Positions 3,001 to 6,000 of a stretch of 64,000 nucleotides of DNA are shown piece after piece. Each line of letters opens with the position of its first letter. Position 1 is the first letter of the stretch. The stretch is from Escherichia coli. Lineage in GTDB: Bacteria > Pseudomonadota > Gammaproteobacteria > Enterobacterales > Enterobacteriaceae. The position numbers are program-made. The stretch lies in NCBI RefSeq assembly GCF_013122565.1, contig NZ_CP053258.1; one strand, given 5' to 3'.

Positions 3001-6000
3001 CCGAGGGAATACTGCTGCAATGCCAGCGTGATGACAAAACCCTTAGCACTAATCCGCTGGTCTGGCGGCGCGTAAAGCCATAAATGCCTCTAATAGTGGA
3101 ATGTCAGCAGGGGCCAGCGGATATTGCAGCGCCTCTTCAGGTGAGCACCAGACCAGCGCCTGATGTTCATGTGCCTGTAACGTCCCGTGGAAGTCGGGTA
3201 CGTGCCAGGCATGAAGATGGATAATCCGCCCCGAAACTTCTCGCTGATGGCTGGCAACATACTCACCCACAGTTGCTTCGATGCCCAGTTCTTCGTTTAA
3301 CTCACGCACCAGCGCCTGCTGCTGGCTTTCATCCAGCTCGACTTTACCACCGGCAAACTCCCATAATCCCGCCTGATCGCTCTGGGCGGATCGTTGCGCG
3401 AGTAAAATTTTGCCATCACGTTCAATGATGGCGGCAACAACTTCAATCATTTTCATAAATTACACACGGGCAGATAAGCGAAAAATGCCATAATATCCGC
3501 ACTGTTGCTCAATCAGAAAGGCTTTATATTTAAGGAGTGCCTGTGCTAGACCGCCATCTTCATCCCCGGATTAAACCGTTGTTGCATCAGTGCGTGCGGG
3601 TTCTTGATAAACCGGGCATTACGCCAGATGGTTTAACATTAGTGGGATTTGCCATCGGCGTGCTGGCTCTGCCGTTTCTGGCTCTGGGCTGGTATCTGGC
3701 GGCGCTAGTCGTCATTTTGTTGAATCGTCTGCTTGATGGTCTGGATGGCGCACTGGCGCGGCGCAGAGGGCTTACCGACGCGGGCGGCTTTCTCGATATT
3801 TCTCTCGATTTTCTCTTTTACGCGCTGGTGCCGTTTGGTTTTATTCTTGCTGCACCGGAGCAAAATGCGCTGGCAGGCGGCTGGCTGCTGTTTGCGTTTA
3901 TCGGCACGGGCAGCAGTTTTCTCGCTTTTGCTGCGCTGGCGGCGAAACATCAGATTGATAATCCCGGTTATGCGCATAAATCGTTTTATTATCTGGGCGG
4001 GTTAACCGAAGGCAGCGAGACGATTTTGCTATTTGTTCTGAGTTGCCTCTTTCCGACGTGTTTTCCGTGGTTTGCATGGGTATTTGGTGCGTTGTGCTGG
4101 ATGACGACCTTTACGCGGGTGTGGAGTGGGTATCTGACGCTGAAGTCGCTCCAGCGTCAGTAATTGCAATGTTATTTGCTGCTGTCCGGGCCGCGTTCAC
4201 CGGTTGCAACCGGATTTTTTGGATCGCTGCTCCATTCGTACCAGCCGCCGTCGTAAACGGAGACGTTATTCCAGCCCATTGCTCGTGCGTACATAAAGGT
4301 TTCGGACGCGCGCCAGCCGGTGCCGCAGTAGAATGAAACTTGCTGATCTGGTTTGATATTCCATGCTTTCCACATAGCCGTAATATCATCGGCGCTGCGC
4401 ATGGTGCCATCCGGGTTATGGAAATCTTCCATATGCGTCGAGTCGCTACCAGCGTGTCCCCAACGTGCTCCGGCTATTTCACCTTTTGGTTTAATATAGC
4501 TGTAACCGCTGGTCGTACCGATAAATTCTGGCCACGAACGAATGCTCACCAGCGATGAATCCTGGCGATGCAGCAGTCCACGCGCCTGTTCCATATCAAG
4601 CATCAGTTGCGGTTGTGCCGGGATCTTCACGCCGAAATCCGGTTCCGCTTTCACTTTCGGTGGCGTTCCTCGCTCAACAGGCAGTCCCGCGTCGGACCAG
4701 GTTTGCCAGCCGCCATCCAGCAGGCGCACATCTTTCACGCCGGCATAAAGCATAATCTGCGCCACACGCGCTGCAGCGTATACGTCACGCCCATACAGAA
4801 TGACCGTGGTGTCATGGCGAATGCCGTGTTTTGCCAGCATCGCTTTTAGTTGTGCATCAGAAACTTTGTTCCACAGCGGTTCGCTTTCCACTTCGTTGGT
4901 ATCGATGTAGTCAGCACCGGGAATATGGCTGATAAGGTAAAGCTTAGGAGCGCCCCAGGCCGCTTCAATGACTTTCCAGTCACCGGCAGGTTTCGCCGTA
5001 ACCTCTTTACCTTGTTGCAGGTCGTGCAGCCATTGCGGATAAACCAGCTGCTCAAAGTGCGGCAGTTTTTGTAGACGGGAAGGTTCGCTTAGCGCGTCAC
5101 TCAGAATGGAGATATGCGTAAAACCTGCTTTTTGCAGTCGCGTTTTGACGGCGTCGACATCTTTGTCATTACCGTACAGCGCCACCGGGGCATCGGCTTT
5201 CAGGTTATGTTGCTTGATCCACGCGTTGAGCTGTTCGGTGCTCATTTTGTCAAGCCAGCTAGCAGAGAGGTTTAAGGCGGCAGGTTCATGACCAGAAGGG
5301 CCATTTAAGGTTTGTGGCCAGCCGTTATAAAACGCGCTGGGGCGAGTATCTATCGCTTTGCCATTTTGTTGTTGAAGCTGGTCAAGTGTAAGAGGCTTCG
5401 CCAGTTCAGCGGCCCACGAAGAAGCGCAAGCCAGCCCTAAAGCCATTGCCAGCGCGGTCATTTGAGAAACACGTTTCATCGAAAATCCCGACATTGTAGT
5501 TTTGAGTGCGCCATTCTGAACTGACGCATTGAGAAAAACTTTGCGTTATCGCAGTTTGTTGTAATTTTCTGACCACTGCGCCATATCCAGAACAGAACTA
5601 TCAGCAGGAACATCCTGGAGATCGTGCGTTACCTGAACGACGGGGATCGCCAGGGCGCGAACTTCGCTGAACACCCACTGGCGAAAATTATCGCGCAGAG
5701 CCACATCAAGACGGCTGAATGGCTCATCCAGGAGTAACGCTTTTGGCTGGGCGAGAAGGGCGCGTAGTAGAGCAACGCGCGCTCGCTGACCGCCAGACAA
5801 AGTGGCAGGATCCTGATGGAAAGCTCCGTCAAGGCCTGAACGCTCAAGTGCATCATTCACGGCATTACGTCGGGCATTCCCTTTAAGTGTCGCCGGTAGC
5901 GCCAGCAGTAAATTTTGCCCGACGCTGAACTGGTCAAATAACAGTGCATCCTGGAAAAGAATGCCAATCTGACGCTGTGCGGTGGGTAGCATGTCAATCC

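What the first reader, a model, noticed from the sequence alone, without database searches (positions are those of the whole stretch)
3543..5479. Periplasmic triple-rhodanese sulfurtransferase (ynjE) paired with a CDP-alcohol phosphatidyltransferase-family membrane protein (ynjF) next to the ABC cluster
YnjE has a cleavable signal peptide and a canonical rhodanese catalytic loop CGTGWR, so persulfide chemistry would occur in the periplasm. Divergently adjacent ynjF carries the full CDP-alcohol phosphatidyltransferase signature D-G-x2-A-R...G-x3-D-x3-D, but its position does not correspond to pgsA or pssA. Together with the neighbouring DedA genes this suggests an unassigned lipid head-group or sulfur-transfer activity at the membrane. 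The functional link is speculative.
Basis: partly seen in the sequence, partly recalled or inferred. Interest (0 to 1): 0.4.

Follow-up and report, generated by a model that had tools for sequence, protein, structure and literature searches.

The report
Known E. coli genes ynjE and ynjF
These are the catalogued Escherichia genes ynjE (a periplasmic sulfur-transfer enzyme with a solved structure) and ynjF (an uncharacterised membrane lipid-type transferase), and comparison across bacteria shows that ynjF belongs with the neighbouring transporter and DedA membrane genes.

Summary
ynjF (3543-4163, +) and ynjE (4172-5479, -) are the annotated Escherichia genes. The CDP-alcohol signature, three rhodanese domains, CGTGWR loop and signal peptide are all present. 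But the genes are convergent, with stops 8 nt apart, not divergent. ynjF diverges from nudG.

- **Enterobacterales:** ynjE lies convergent to ynjF in 72 of 74 species loci. In Hafnia and strain B14 a four-gene set (ynjA-like, ynjF, ynjE, one DedA gene) sits at a different chromosomal site.
- **Distant Proteobacteria:** in 18 loci, YnjF homologs (45-60% identity) have YnjD in 15, YnjB in 14 and a DedA-disulfide-reductase fusion in 15, but a rhodanese in none. The ynjF start usually overlaps the preceding gene's stop by 8 nt.

So ynjF most likely works with YnjBCD, the DedA proteins and YnjA, and ynjE is an Enterobacterales add-on. The YnjF model resembles phosphatidylinositol-phosphate synthases, not PgsA. 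YnjE is 41% identical to the ergothioneine synthase EanB and keeps its catalytic Tyr, Cys and Arg.

Substrates remain unknown. The genes are already known. I found no paper describing the module-level link.

The parts
3543..4163 (+). ynjF, CDP-alcohol phosphotransferase-family inner-membrane protein (206 aa, GTG start)
   Evidence: ORF list. RefSeq annotation of matching E. coli genomes. Pfam PF01066 at 43.8 bits. AlphaFold model with pLDDT 86.9 and pTM 0.84. The fold is closest to PIP synthases and AF2299.
3735..3809 (+). Catalytic signature D65xxD68GxxAR-x7-G-x3-D85-x3-D89 of YnjF
   Evidence: Regex match at residues 65-89, and 0 of 20000 shuffles contain it. All eight signature residues are invariant in 36 homologs down to 45% identity.
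3457..3542 (.). nudG-ynjF divergent intergenic region, with the ynjF Shine-Dalgarno AGGAG at 3533-3537
   Evidence: Sequence read. No promoter-like hit was found here by the simple scan.
4164..4171 (.). 8-nt spacer between the convergent stop codons of ynjF (TAA, 4161-4163) and ynjE (TTA on the + strand, 4172-4174)
   Evidence: Sequence read. The ynjE-ynjF pair is listed among convergent overlapping-transcript pairs of E. coli in PMC12288877.
4200..4223 (+). Terminator-like hairpin CCGGTTGCAACCGG plus a T-run. It is a candidate ynjF terminator lying inside the 3' end of ynjE.
   Evidence: Consensus scan. Function not shown.
4172..5479 (-). ynjE, periplasmic sulfurtransferase with three rhodanese domains (435 aa)
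   Evidence: ORF. Three Pfam rhodanese stretches. About 98% identical to PDB 3IPO/2WLR.
5411..5479 (-). Signal peptide of YnjE (residues 1-23, cleavage predicted after SWA)
   Evidence: Sequence features. The crystallised chains start at residue 20-23. YnjE is described as periplasmic and expressed without its signal sequence in PMC10215317.
4310..4327 (-). Active-site loop C385-G-T-G-W-R390 of YnjE
   Evidence: Regex. Invariant in 79 homologs apart from one T-to-S change. Identical to the loop of EanB.
4502..4504 (-). Tyr326 of YnjE, equivalent to the catalytic Tyr353 of EanB
   Evidence: HMMER alignment to 6KTV. The role of Tyr353 is taken from PMC10903977. Invariant in 79 homologs.
5493..5520 (-). 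Promoter-like hexamers TTCAGA-16-TACAAT upstream of ynjE
   Evidence: Consensus scan. FNR activation of ynjE is published for K-12 (PMC3688515). No FNR box with fewer than 4 mismatches was found here.
5546..8876 (-). ynjD (5546-6199, ATPase), ynjC (6199-7734, double permease) and ynjB (7707-8876, periplasmic binding protein): an ABC importer
   Evidence: Pfam and NCBIfam. The YnjB model has pLDDT 92 and its fold is closest to PhnS, PotD, FbpA, AfuA and TbpA-type binding proteins. Orthologs sit next to YnjF homologs in 14-15 of 18 distant loci.
8883..9431 (-). ynjA, an AhpD/CMD-family protein with a CEFC motif
   Evidence: Pfam CMD. PDB relatives are AhpD-like. CxxC at residue 76. In other Enterobacterales a ynjA-like gene sits directly upstream of ynjF instead, and never in both places.
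9431..11545 (-). ydjZ (9431-10138) and ydjX (10835-11545), both DedA/VTT proteins, and ydjY (10153-10830), a predicted lipoprotein with CxxCxxxC
   Evidence: Pfam VTT_dom and the NCBIfam YdjY domain. Cysteine positions. YdjZ is placed in DedA subfamily COG0398 (PMC10127716).
11655..11668 (-). Near-consensus FNR box TTGAGAAAAATCAA upstream of ydjX
   Evidence: One mismatch to TTGAT-N4-ATCAA. FNR activation of ydjXYZ-ynjABCD is published (PMC3688515).
3049..3456 (-). nudG, a Nudix CTP pyrophosphohydrolase divergent from ynjF
   Evidence: Pfam NUDIX. RefSeq name. Divergent from ynjF in 71 of 78 Enterobacterales loci but in 0 of 18 distant loci.

Best explanation
The two genes are the known ynjF and ynjE. 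They are not a self-contained pair.

**Shown**
- ynjF is a PIP-synthase-like CDP-alcohol phosphotransferase with an intact catalytic site.
- Across Proteobacteria its orthologs are normally the last gene of a translationally coupled operon. That operon holds the YnjB/YnjC/YnjD ABC importer, a COG0398 DedA (VTT) membrane domain that is usually fused to an FAD disulfide reductase, and often an AhpD-like YnjA.
- In Enterobacterales the reductase domain is missing. ynjF, usually together with ynjA, is inverted. The periplasmic rhodanese ynjE lies between ynjD and ynjF.

**Inferred mechanism**
1. YnjBCD imports a small polar solute, probably phosphorylated or aminated.
2. At the cytoplasmic face, YnjF joins an alcohol of that solute to a CDP-activated phosphatidyl group, most likely from CDP-diacylglycerol. 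This releases CMP and makes a minor phospholipid.
3. The scramblase-like DedA proteins YdjX and YdjZ move the product across the inner membrane.
4. The thiol-redox partners act on the cargo or head group. These are the reductase domain, YnjA, and, in Enterobacterales, persulfide-carrying YnjE in the periplasm.

In E. coli the ydjX-ynjD operon and ynjE are switched on anaerobically by FNR. The tail-to-tail overlap of ynjE and ynjF may add antisense interference between the two.
For: **Gene identities**
- establish what the genes are.

**YnjF enzyme**
- Catalytic motif intact and invariant in 36 homologs.
- Model pLDDT 86.9.
- Foldseek TM-scores are 0.64-0.73 to PIP synthases (6WM5, 6H59, 5D92) and AF2299/DIPPS. 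They are only 0.43-0.48 to PgsA.
- The best NCBIfam models are archaetidylinositol-phosphate and PIP synthase, both far below cut-off.

**Distant loci (n = 18; Pseudoalteromonas, Catenovulum, Paracoccus, Aliiroseovarius, Sphingopyxis, Aeromonas, Tolumonas, Iodobacter, Rhodoferax, Serratia, an IncC plasmid and metagenome contigs)**
- YnjD in 15, YnjB in 14, YnjC in at least 12, and the VTT-FAD reductase fusion in 15.
- The ynjF start overlaps the stop of the preceding gene by 8 nt in 12 of 13 distant loci and in 5 of 6 Enterobacterales loci examined.

**ynjA position**
- ynjA occupies one of two places: upstream of ynjF in 66 of 79 loci, or upstream of ynjB in 11 of 69. It is in both in 0 loci and in neither in 1.

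**ynjE linkage**
- Present in 72 of 74 Enterobacterales loci.
- The set ynjA'-ynjF / ynjE / DedA lies between alaA and lrhA-nuo in Hafnia and strain B14.

**Hints that the product is a lipid**
- An OlsE-like lipid hydroxylase gene directly follows ynjF in Pseudoalteromonas and Catenovulum. It overlaps ynjF in Pseudoalteromonas and starts 4 nt after it in Catenovulum.
- COG0398 DedA proteins are the closest bacterial relatives of eukaryotic phospholipid scramblases and are unlikely undecaprenyl-phosphate flippases (PMC10127716).

**YnjB**
- Its fold is closest to PhnS, AfuA, TbpA, PotD and FbpA-type binding proteins.

**Regulation**
- FNR activates ydjXYZ-ynjABCD and ynjE (PMC3688515).
- One uncharacterised anaerobic iModulon holds both, together with yedEF (PMC7888660).
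Against: - No substrate, product or phenotype is known for YnjF. I found no functional paper.
- ynjF is not listed in the FNR regulon or in the iModulon that holds ynjE and ydjX-ynjD.
- In the window ynjF is on the opposite strand, monocistronic and not translationally coupled to anything.
- No rhodanese lies near any of the 18 distant YnjF loci. In Aeromonas ynjE is 585 kb away. A direct YnjE-YnjF step is therefore not required for YnjF to function.
- Hafnia-type loci lack ynjBCD nearby, so the importer may also be dispensable.
- The YnjB fold search does not single out a ligand class.
- Conserved synteny inside one bacterial order can reflect shared descent alone.
- The distant loci were sampled from plasmids or chromids and from the best hits to one plasmid-borne homolog. 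They are not a random sample.
Confidence: 0.45

Rival explanations
1. Neighbours without a shared pathway. YnjE is a general or back-up sulfur carrier, for example for molybdopterin synthesis. YnjF is an unrelated minor or silent lipid-synthase paralog. Their adjacency in Enterobacterales is inherited gene order.
For: - YnjE is annotated and cited as a molybdopterin-synthase sulfurtransferase.
- No rhodanese lies near YnjF homologs in 18 distant loci.
- The two genes are unlinked in Aeromonas.
- ynjF is absent from the FNR and iModulon gene lists.
- The genes are on opposite strands.
Against: - A ynjE deletion has normal molybdenum-cofactor-dependent phenotypes (PMC3831636).
- YnjE is periplasmic and has poor thiosulfate and 3-mercaptopyruvate activity (PMC10215317). 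That fits poorly with a cytoplasmic cofactor pathway.
- ynjE, ynjF, a ynjA-like gene and a DedA gene occur together at a second chromosomal site in Hafnia and strain B14.
- ynjE is co-regulated with ydjX-ynjD.
Confidence: 0.25
2. The cluster is chiefly a sulfur, selenium or metalloid redox-uptake system. The ABC importer and the DedA domain bring in an oxidised chalcogen or low-molecular-weight thiol species. The FAD disulfide reductase, YnjA and YnjE reduce it or carry it as a persulfide. YnjF plays only an accessory membrane role.
For: - The iModulon joins ydjXYZ-ynjABCD and ynjE with yedEF, a putative selenium transporter and sulfurtransferase.
- A second small oxidoreductase in 6 of 18 loci scores 297 bits on TIGR03169, 'N-terminal to SelD', just under the cut-off of 310.
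- The VTT-fused reductase keeps the CxxxxC redox centre.
- Neighbouring genes include glutathione reductase, MsrAB, OsmC, thioredoxin, bufferin/DoxX genes and, in one locus, EgtB/EgtD.
- YnjE is 41% identical to the ergothioneine synthase EanB and keeps its catalytic Tyr, Cys and Arg.
- In Ilyobacter a YnjE-like gene sits next to a reductase 38% identical to the fused domain.
Against: - This reading does not explain why a catalytically intact CDP-alcohol phosphotransferase is the most constant, translationally coupled partner of the ABC genes.
- COG0398 DedA proteins look like lipid scramblases rather than ion carriers.
- The reductase lacks the C-terminal Cys pair of mercuric reductase.
- The selenium and ergothioneine hints are each indirect or come from a single locus.
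Confidence: 0.2
3. The significance of the pairing is regulatory. Convergent transcription across the 8-nt junction makes ynjE and ynjF mutually exclusive (an excludon), whatever their biochemistry.
For: - The stop codons are 8 nt apart.
- The only terminator-like hairpin for ynjF lies inside ynjE.
- The ynjE-ynjF pair is listed among transcript-overlap pairs in E. coli RNA-seq (PMC12288877).
- The convergent arrangement is kept in 72 of 74 Enterobacterales loci.
Against: - In one search most loci have ynjE starting 615-770 nt after the ynjF start. That implies short but variable gaps, so the exact 8-nt junction is not conserved.
- The overlap list is long and no functional test is reported.
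- This reading does not exclude a shared pathway.
Confidence: 0.1

Closest known systems
Phosphatidylinositol-phosphate synthases and AF2299/DIPPS (CDP-alcohol phosphotransferases; PDB 6WM5, 6H59, 5D92, 4O6N, 4MND)
   Same: - Same signature motif on the second and third membrane helices.
- Same all-helical membrane fold (TM-score 0.64-0.73).
- Similar size, about 200 residues.
   Different: - Only 17-23% identity.
- NCBIfam scores are far below the family cut-offs: 62 against 180 and 43 against 170.
- YnjF has its own invariant residues: K135, K146, E156, E159, C185 and R192.
- E. coli is not known to make inositol lipids (my own knowledge).
- The acceptor is unknown.
PgsA (phosphatidylglycerophosphate synthase), the essential CDP-alcohol transferase of E. 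coli
   Same: Same Pfam family and the same catalytic signature.
   Different: - No NCBIfam PgsA match.
- The fold match is much weaker, with TM-score 0.43-0.48.
- Different locus and different gene neighbours.
YnjE crystal structures (PDB 3IPO, 3IPP, 2WLR, 2WLX)
   Same: About 98% identical. It is the same protein, with three rhodanese domains and an active Cys385.
   Different: A few substitutions only. The physiological donor and acceptor are still unknown.
EanB, the anaerobic ergothioneine synthase of Chlorobium limicola (PDB 6KTV, 6H98)
   Same: - 41% identity over about 390 residues, E = 1e-88.
- Identical CGTGWR loop.
- Tyr353, Cys412 and Arg417 correspond to Tyr326, Cys385 and Arg390 in YnjE.
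   Different: - YnjE has a signal peptide and is periplasmic.
- No histidine methyltransferase (EanA/EgtD) gene is in the first 12 kb of the window.
- No ergothioneine-forming activity has been reported for YnjE.
COG0398 DedA / eukaryotic VMP1-TMEM41B scramblases working beside a CDP-alcohol transferase (phosphatidylinositol synthase)
   Same: A VTT-domain membrane protein is genetically tied to a PI-synthase-like enzyme. The eukaryotic parallel comes from my own knowledge.
   Different: The bacterial link is gene neighbourhood only. The usual fusion to a disulfide reductase and the ABC importer have no eukaryotic counterpart.
PhnSTUV / AfuABC / ThiBPQ-type ABC importers
   Same: - The YnjB fold and the sub-threshold YnjC and YnjD family hits are closest to these importers.
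- The permease is a fused double domain.
   Different: - No equivalog cut-off is reached.
- No PDB relative is detectable by sequence.
- The ligand is unknown.
- None of these systems carries a CDP-alcohol transferase gene (my own knowledge).

Membership tests
CDP-alcohol phosphatidyltransferase family (Pfam PF01066 / PROSITE PS00379) | Signature D-G-x2-A-R-x7,8-G-x3-D-x3-D, extended form D-x2-D-G... | tested here: met
   Residues 65-89, DGLDGALARRRGLTDAGGFLDISLD. It appears in 0 of 20000 shuffles and is invariant in 36 homologs.
CDP-alcohol phosphatidyltransferase family (Pfam PF01066 / PROSITE PS00379) | Profile score above the curated threshold | tested here: met
   43.8 bits against a cut-off of 22, E = 4.6e-11.
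CDP-alcohol phosphatidyltransferase family (Pfam PF01066 / PROSITE PS00379) | Polytopic helical membrane fold of the solved members | tested here: met
   The AlphaFold model has pLDDT 86.9. The top 23 Foldseek PDB hits are all CDP-alcohol transferases.
CDP-alcohol phosphatidyltransferase family (Pfam PF01066 / PROSITE PS00379) | Transfer of a substituted phosphate from a CDP-linked donor to an alcohol, with release of CMP | not testable with these tools
   Needs an enzyme assay.
PgsA / PIP synthase / archaetidylinositol-phosphate synthase / phosphatidylcholine synthase (specific equivalogs) | NCBIfam equivalog score above cut-off | tested here: not met
   - Archaetidylinositol-phosphate synthase: 62.4 against 180.
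- PIP synthase: 42.7 against 170.
- Phosphatidylcholine synthase: 18.8 against 440.
- PgsA: no hit.
YnjE (three-domain rhodanese sulfurtransferase) | Three rhodanese domains, with one active-site Cys in a Cys-X4-Arg loop of the C-terminal domain | tested here: met
   Three Pfam stretches. CGTGWR at residues 385-390. About 98% identical to 3IPO/2WLR.
YnjE (three-domain rhodanese sulfurtransferase) | Export to the periplasm through a cleavable signal peptide | tested here: inconclusive
   The sequence shows n-, h- and AxA-like regions, and the crystallised chains start at residue 20-23. Periplasmic location is taken from PMC10215317. No signal-peptide predictor was available.
YnjE (three-domain rhodanese sulfurtransferase) | Thiosulfate or 3-mercaptopyruvate sulfurtransferase activity | not testable with these tools
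   The literature reports poor activity with both donors and no thiosulfate:glutathione activity.
EanB-type ergothioneine synthase | Catalytic Tyr353, Cys412 and Arg417 | tested here: met
   They align to Tyr326, Cys385 and Arg390. The roles come from PMC10903977. The residues are invariant in 79 YnjE homologs.
EanB-type ergothioneine synthase | Cytoplasmic enzyme encoded next to a histidine N-methyltransferase (EanA/EgtD) | tested here: not met
   YnjE has a signal peptide. No Methyltransf_33 protein is among the ten ynjH-to-ydjX gene products scanned with Pfam, and NCBIfam gave no such hit for ydjY. EgtB and EgtD were seen next to the module only in metagenome locus L093.
Conserved DedA(VTT) - YnjBCD - YnjF operon (unnamed, defined here) | ynjF lies within a few kb of ynjB, ynjC, ynjD and a COG0398 DedA gene | tested here: met
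   In the window, ynjD ends 1.4 kb from ynjF, and ydjZ and ydjX lie at 9431-11545. The same partners are found in 14-15 of 18 distant loci.
Conserved DedA(VTT) - YnjBCD - YnjF operon (unnamed, defined here) | ynjF is co-directional with the preceding gene and overlaps it by 8 nt | tested here: not met
   In the window ynjF is on the opposite strand and follows an 86-nt intergenic region. The overlap is present in 12 of 13 distant loci and in 5 of 6 Enterobacterales loci that carry ynjA'.
Conserved DedA(VTT) - YnjBCD - YnjF operon (unnamed, defined here) | The DedA domain is fused to an FAD disulfide reductase | tested here: not met
   YdjX and YdjZ are VTT-only proteins of 235-236 aa. The fusion is present in 15 of 18 distant loci.
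Excludon (convergent genes with overlapping transcripts) | Convergent genes whose transcripts overlap | tested here: inconclusive
   The 8-nt spacer, and the only + strand hairpin lying inside ynjE, make overlap likely. The pair is listed for K-12 in PMC12288877. No transcript data exist for this window.

The most novel reading that the evidence does not exclude
ydjX-ynjF would encode an undescribed envelope pathway. YnjBCD imports a solute. The PIP-synthase-like YnjF attaches it to a phosphatidyl anchor. The scramblase-like DedA proteins expose the head group in the periplasm. There the EanB-like YnjE, or in other lineages the membrane-tethered disulfide reductase, installs or maintains a sulfur or thiol function on it. 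The result would be a redox-active, possibly thiolated, phospholipid made by E. coli under anaerobic conditions. A mobile version of the pathway is carried on IncC-type plasmids.
Probability: 0.1. Interest if true: 0.85.

Novelty: already known. Interest (0 to 1): 0.35.

Why it matters
**The genes.** Both genes are catalogued, so the finding as written is ordinary.

**What the comparison adds.** It gives a concrete, testable frame for several long-standing E. coli genes of unknown function: ydjX, ydjY, ydjZ, ynjA-D and ynjF.
- They appear to form one conserved system.
- Its core is an ABC importer, a COG0398 DedA protein and a PIP-synthase-like transferase.
- This core is spread over alpha-, beta- and gammaproteobacteria and is also carried on conjugative plasmids.

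**If YnjF makes a lipid.**
- It would be a new minor phospholipid of E. coli.
- It would give a first biochemical partner for the DedA subfamily closest to the eukaryotic scramblases VMP1 and TMEM41B.

**YnjE.** Its conservation of the EanB catalytic residues also gives a specific hypothesis for an enzyme whose physiological substrate has been unclear since 2009.

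Tried and rejected
- **Literature on ynjF.** Searches by gene name and by identifiers gave only a proteomics mention and the excludon list. Nothing functional turned up.
- **Literature on the cluster and the DedA-reductase fusion**. The fusion is noted in PMC10127716, but its text does not mention CDP, phosphatidyltransferase or ABC.
- **FNR box upstream of ynjE.** The best candidates have 4-5 mismatches, so I make no claim for this window. 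A one-mismatch box was found upstream of ydjX instead.
- **PDB sequence searches** for YnjB and YdjY found nothing.
- **Fold search for YnjB** gave the broad PhnS/PotD/FbpA/AfuA/TbpA class and no specific ligand.
- **YnjF as PgsA, PssA, Pcs or PIP synthase.** Rejected as memberships on NCBIfam scores and fold ranking.
- **VTT-fused reductase as mercuric reductase.** It has the CxxxxC centre but no C-terminal Cys pair, so rejected.
- **YdjX and YdjZ as undecaprenyl-phosphate flippases.** NCBIfam UptA scores are 27-36 against a cut-off of 250, and COG0398 lacks the required residues, so rejected.
- **YnjE homolog contexts outside Enterobacterales** (Aeromonas, Ilyobacter, Cetobacterium). No YnjF was nearby. 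Only Ilyobacter had a related reductase next door.
- **nudG as a conserved partner of ynjF.** Found in 71 of 78 Enterobacterales loci but in 0 of 18 distant loci, so it is a local neighbour only.
- **Label error.** My scripts swapped the labels ydjX and ydjZ until. This is corrected in note 4 and in this report.

Full report
**1. What is at the coordinates**

The window is Escherichia. Bases 3000-6000 match 5423 of 5426 complete E. coli genomes at up to 98.7% identity. The annotated genes there are ynjH, nudG, ynjF, ynjE and ynjD.

*ynjF*
- It runs 3543-4163 on the + strand and encodes 206 aa.
- The start codon is GTG, five bases after an AGGAG Shine-Dalgarno sequence.

*ynjE*
- It runs 4172-5479 on the - strand and encodes 435 aa.

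*Orientation*
- The two genes are convergent. TAA of ynjF ends at 4163 and the ynjE stop occupies 4172-4174, so 8 nt lie between them.
- 'Divergently adjacent' is therefore wrong. ynjF is divergent from nudG (3049-3456).

*Other genes, on the - strand*

| Gene | Coordinates |
|---|---|
| ydjX | 10835-11545 |
| ydjY | 10153-10830 |
| ydjZ | 9431-10138 |
| ynjA | 8883-9431 |
| ynjB | 7707-8876 |
| ynjC | 6199-7734 |
| ynjD | 5546-6199 |

ynjE follows ynjD. In my early scripts the labels ydjX and ydjZ were swapped. This is corrected here.

**2. The two proteins**

*YnjF*
- It matches Pfam PF01066 at 43.8 bits against a cut-off of 22.
- It carries DGLDGALARRRGLTDAGGFLDISLD at residues 65-89, which is the full family signature. 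The pattern was absent from 20000 shuffles of the protein.
- All eight signature residues are invariant in 36 homologs down to 45% identity. So is a family-specific set: R62, K135, K146, E156, E159, C185 and R192.
- An AlphaFold model built on that alignment is confident, with pLDDT 86.9 and pTM 0.84.
- Its best PDB matches are phosphatidylinositol-phosphate synthases (6WM5, 6H59, 5D92) and AF2299/DIPPS, with TM-scores of 0.64-0.73. Cholinephosphotransferase scores 0.49 and PgsA 0.43-0.48.
- NCBIfam points the same way. Archaetidylinositol-phosphate synthase scores 62 bits and PIP synthase 43 bits, both far below the cut-offs of 180 and 170. There is no PgsA hit.
- YnjF is therefore a genuine family member with an intact active site, PIP-synthase-like in shape, and not a member of any characterised equivalog.

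*YnjE*
- It has three Pfam rhodanese stretches and is about 98% identical to the crystallised YnjE (3IPO, 2WLR).
- It has only two cysteines. One is in the signal peptide and the other is Cys385 in CGTGWR.
- The literature treats it as periplasmic. It reports poor activity with thiosulfate or 3-mercaptopyruvate, no thiosulfate:glutathione activity, and an unclear physiological substrate (PMC10215317).
- A ynjE deletion has normal molybdenum-cofactor-dependent phenotypes (PMC3831636).
- Its nearest solved relative after itself is the sulfurtransferase of entries 6KTV and 6H98 (E = 1e-88, 41% identity). I identify this from my own knowledge as EanB, the anaerobic ergothioneine synthase.
- The residues reported as critical in EanB are Tyr353, Cys412 and Arg417 (PMC10903977). 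They align with Tyr326, Cys385 and Arg390 of YnjE.
- Those three residues are invariant in 79 YnjE homologs.
- This is a lead for a C-S bond-forming activity. It is not a membership, because YnjE is exported and no histidine methyltransferase gene is nearby.

**3. The co-occurrence test: Enterobacterales**

A scan of one genome per species returned 80 loci, all Enterobacterales. Two of them carry wrong taxon labels. I counted only loci where the relevant stretch is visible.

| Feature | Loci |
|---|---|
| ynjE convergent downstream of ynjF | 72 of 74 |
| ynjD present | 65 of 69 |
| ynjB present | 64 of 69 |
| nudG divergent from ynjF | 71 of 78 |
| ynjA-like gene directly upstream of ynjF, same strand | 66 of 79 |
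| ynjA in the Escherichia position, upstream of ynjB | 11 of 69 |
| ynjA in both positions | 0 |
| ynjA in neither position | 1 |

- The ynjA-like gene upstream of ynjF is about 55% identical to YnjA and has a CxxC motif.
- One AhpD-like gene is thus kept per system, placed either with ynjF or with the ABC genes.
- In Hafnia paralvei, Enterobacillus and 'Enterobacteriaceae bacterium B14' the locus is reduced to ynjA'-ynjF, a convergent ynjE and one ydjZ-like DedA gene, with no ynjBCD.
- In Hafnia and B14 this four-gene set lies between alaA and lrhA-nuo, not between gdhA and xthA.
- That relocation is the best evidence that ynjE belongs with ynjF, ynjA and a DedA protein.

**4. The co-occurrence test: distant bacteria**

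*Sampling*
- A protein search of plasmid and chromid records found YnjF homologs at 45-60% identity in Pseudoalteromonas, Catenovulum, Paracoccus, Aliiroseovarius, Sphingopyxis, Sinorhizobium and Aeromonas. It also found one on IncC and other conjugative plasmids of Klebsiella, E. coli, Salmonella and Providencia.
- A search of the large protein collection with the plasmid copy added Serratia, Iodobacter, Tolumonas, Rhodoferax, Thiothrix and metagenome contigs.
- Annotated or called genes around 18 such loci are.

*Counts in the 18 loci*

| Partner near the YnjF homolog | Loci |
|---|---|
| YnjD | 15 |
| YnjB (38-64% identical) | 14 |
| YnjC | at least 12 |
| COG0398 DedA/VTT domain fused to an FAD disulfide reductase (about 717 aa) | 15 |
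| Second small oxidoreductase | 6 |
| AhpD/CMD protein | 5-6 |
| Rhodanese | 0 |
| NudG | 0 |
| YdjY | 0 |

*Gene order and coupling*
- The usual order is fusion protein, SBP, permease, ATPase, YnjF.
- The YnjF start ATG-YTT-GA contains the TGA stop of the preceding gene, an 8-nt overlap, in 12 of 13 distant loci.
- The same overlap joins ynjA' to ynjF in 5 of 6 Enterobacterales loci examined.
- Aeromonas caviae has ynjA, the fusion gene, ynjB, ynjD and ynjF in one direction (ynjC was not detected). Its ynjE homolog (54% identical) lies 585 kb away among unrelated genes.

For ynjF with ynjE, co-occurrence holds only inside Enterobacterales.

**5. Clues to mechanism**

*Lipid side*
- COG0398 DedA proteins, including YdjZ, are the closest bacterial relatives of eukaryotic phospholipid scramblases. 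They lack the residues expected of undecaprenyl-phosphate flippases. Their commonest fusion partner is a pyridine-nucleotide disulfide oxidoreductase (PMC10127716).
- That paper's text does not mention CDP, phosphatidyltransferase or ABC.
- In Pseudoalteromonas and Catenovulum an OlsE-like lipid hydroxylase gene directly follows ynjF. It overlaps ynjF in Pseudoalteromonas and starts 4 nt after it in Catenovulum.

*Transport side*
- The YnjB model (pLDDT 92) is closest to the PhnS, PotD, FbpA, AfuA, TbpA and P5PA class of binding proteins.
- YnjC and YnjD give their best sub-threshold hits to 2-aminoethylphosphonate, sulfate, thiamine and molybdate systems.
- In Sphingopyxis the ABC genes are replaced by a nucleoside-transporter-like gene.
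- Marine loci begin with a TonB-dependent receptor.

*Redox side*
- The fused reductase keeps GGDCLNYGCVPSK but has no MerA-type C-terminal cysteine pair.
- The small oxidoreductase scores 297 bits on TIGR03169, 'N-terminal to SelD', against a cut-off of 310.
- Neighbouring genes include glutathione reductase, MsrAB, OsmC, thioredoxin and bufferin/DoxX clusters. In one metagenome contig they include bona fide EgtB and EgtD.

*Regulation in E. coli*
- FNR directly activates both ydjXYZ-ynjABCD and ynjE (PMC3688515).
- The window has a one-mismatch FNR box at 11655-11668 upstream of ydjX. It has none better than four mismatches before ynjE.
- An uncharacterised anaerobic iModulon groups these genes with yedEF and yjiLM (PMC7888660). 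ynjF is not named in either list.

**6. Interpretation**

*Shown*
- The gene identities.
- The intact catalytic motifs.
- The PIP-synthase-like fold of the YnjF model.
- The conserved, translationally coupled association of YnjF homologs with YnjBCD and a DedA-reductase protein.
- The either-or placement of ynjA.
- The Enterobacterales-restricted but mobile association with ynjE.

*Inferred*
- YnjBCD imports a polar solute.
- YnjF couples it, or a related alcohol, to a CDP-activated phosphatidyl group.
- DedA proteins move the product.
- The thiol-redox components, YnjE among them, act on the cargo or head group.

I give this reading 0.45.

*Rivals*

| Rival reading | Weight |
|---|---|
| Mere neighbours | 0.25 |
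| Sulfur, selenium or thiol redox-uptake system in which YnjF is accessory | 0.20 |
| Mainly regulatory convergent-transcription relationship | 0.10 |

The fourth rival rests on the 8-nt junction, a hairpin at 4200-4223 inside ynjE, and the pair's listing in PMC12288877. The last two rivals can coexist with the main reading.

**7. Novelty and verdict**

- Both genes are annotated in every E. coli genome, and YnjE has four PDB entries. The finding as written is already known and of modest interest.
- The module-level result is the useful product of this check: DedA(COG0398)-reductase, YnjBCD and YnjF as one widely distributed and plasmid-borne unit, with YnjE as an EanB-like add-on in Enterobacterales.
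- I found no description of this module in the searchable literature. That library is incomplete, and the sample of distant loci is not random.
- Function remains untested.

Noticed in passing
window 3049-3083: nudG (-) and ynjH (+) overlap convergently by 35 nt. The pair is also in the published list of transcript-overlap pairs.
   Followed up: no
window 3537-3545: The ynjF start codon is GTG in this strain. There are two in-frame GTGs, at 3537 and 3543. The first overlaps the AGGAG Shine-Dalgarno sequence, so 3543 is the likely start.
   Followed up: partly
L083 (E. coli IncC plasmid CP063738.1) 900-11000, and about 30 other plasmids: A complete module is carried on conjugative plasmids of Klebsiella, E. 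coli, Salmonella, Citrobacter and Providencia, many of them from bovine or milk sources. It holds the VTT-FAD reductase, a small oxidoreductase, ynjB, ynjC, ynjD and ynjF (YnjF 49.5% identical), plus CMD and DoxX genes. In L083 the fusion gene is split by IS150. Carriage on plasmids suggests a selectable stress trait.
   Followed up: partly
L004, L011, L014, L066, L067, L081-L100 at the ynjF start: The first codons of ynjF (ATG YTT GA) contain the TGA stop of whichever gene precedes it. That gene is ynjD in distant taxa and the ynjA-like gene in Enterobacterales. The same 8-nt overlap is therefore kept although the upstream partner differs.
   Followed up: yes
L067 (Hafnia paralvei) and L080 (Enterobacteriaceae bacterium B14), about 9400-13000: A four-gene set, ynjA'-ynjF, convergent ynjE and a ydjZ-like DedA gene, lies between alaA and lrhA-nuo instead of between gdhA and xthA. 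No ynjBCD is nearby.
   Followed up: yes
L093 11913-14031 (metagenome contig ERZ25039499:contig_3885): Genes scoring above the cut-offs for EgtB (546 bits) and EgtD (379 bits) sit between the VTT-FAD reductase gene and a glutathione reductase gene of the module. This was seen in one locus only.
   Followed up: partly
L082 2312-5956, L083 1-608, L090 16648-18660, L101 15974-18453: Bufferin-type copper-stress genes (BufA1/DUF2282, MbnB-like, HvfC/DUF2063, DoxX), sometimes with an ECF sigma factor, recur beside the module in four unrelated loci.
   Followed up: no
L094 (Ilyobacter polytropus) 6980-9753: A YnjE-like rhodanese (40% identical) lies tail to tail with an FAD oxidoreductase that is 38% identical to the reductase domain of the VTT fusion.
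   Followed up: no
window 11655-11668 (- strand): A near-consensus FNR box, TTGAGAAAAATCAA, lies upstream of ydjX. This is consistent with the published FNR activation of ydjXYZ-ynjABCD.
   Followed up: partly
window 45670-45794 (+), 49635-49793 (+), 28684-28726 (-): Rfam hits elsewhere in the window: Phe leader, sRNA STnc540 and sRNA ES036/CssrF.
   Followed up: no
L034 and L001: L034 is labelled Chryseobacterium sp. but has the full enterobacterial gdhA-ynj-xthA synteny. L001 is labelled as a Citrobacter MAG but is 99% identical to this Escherichia window. Both look like contamination or mis-binning in the public records.
   Followed up: no
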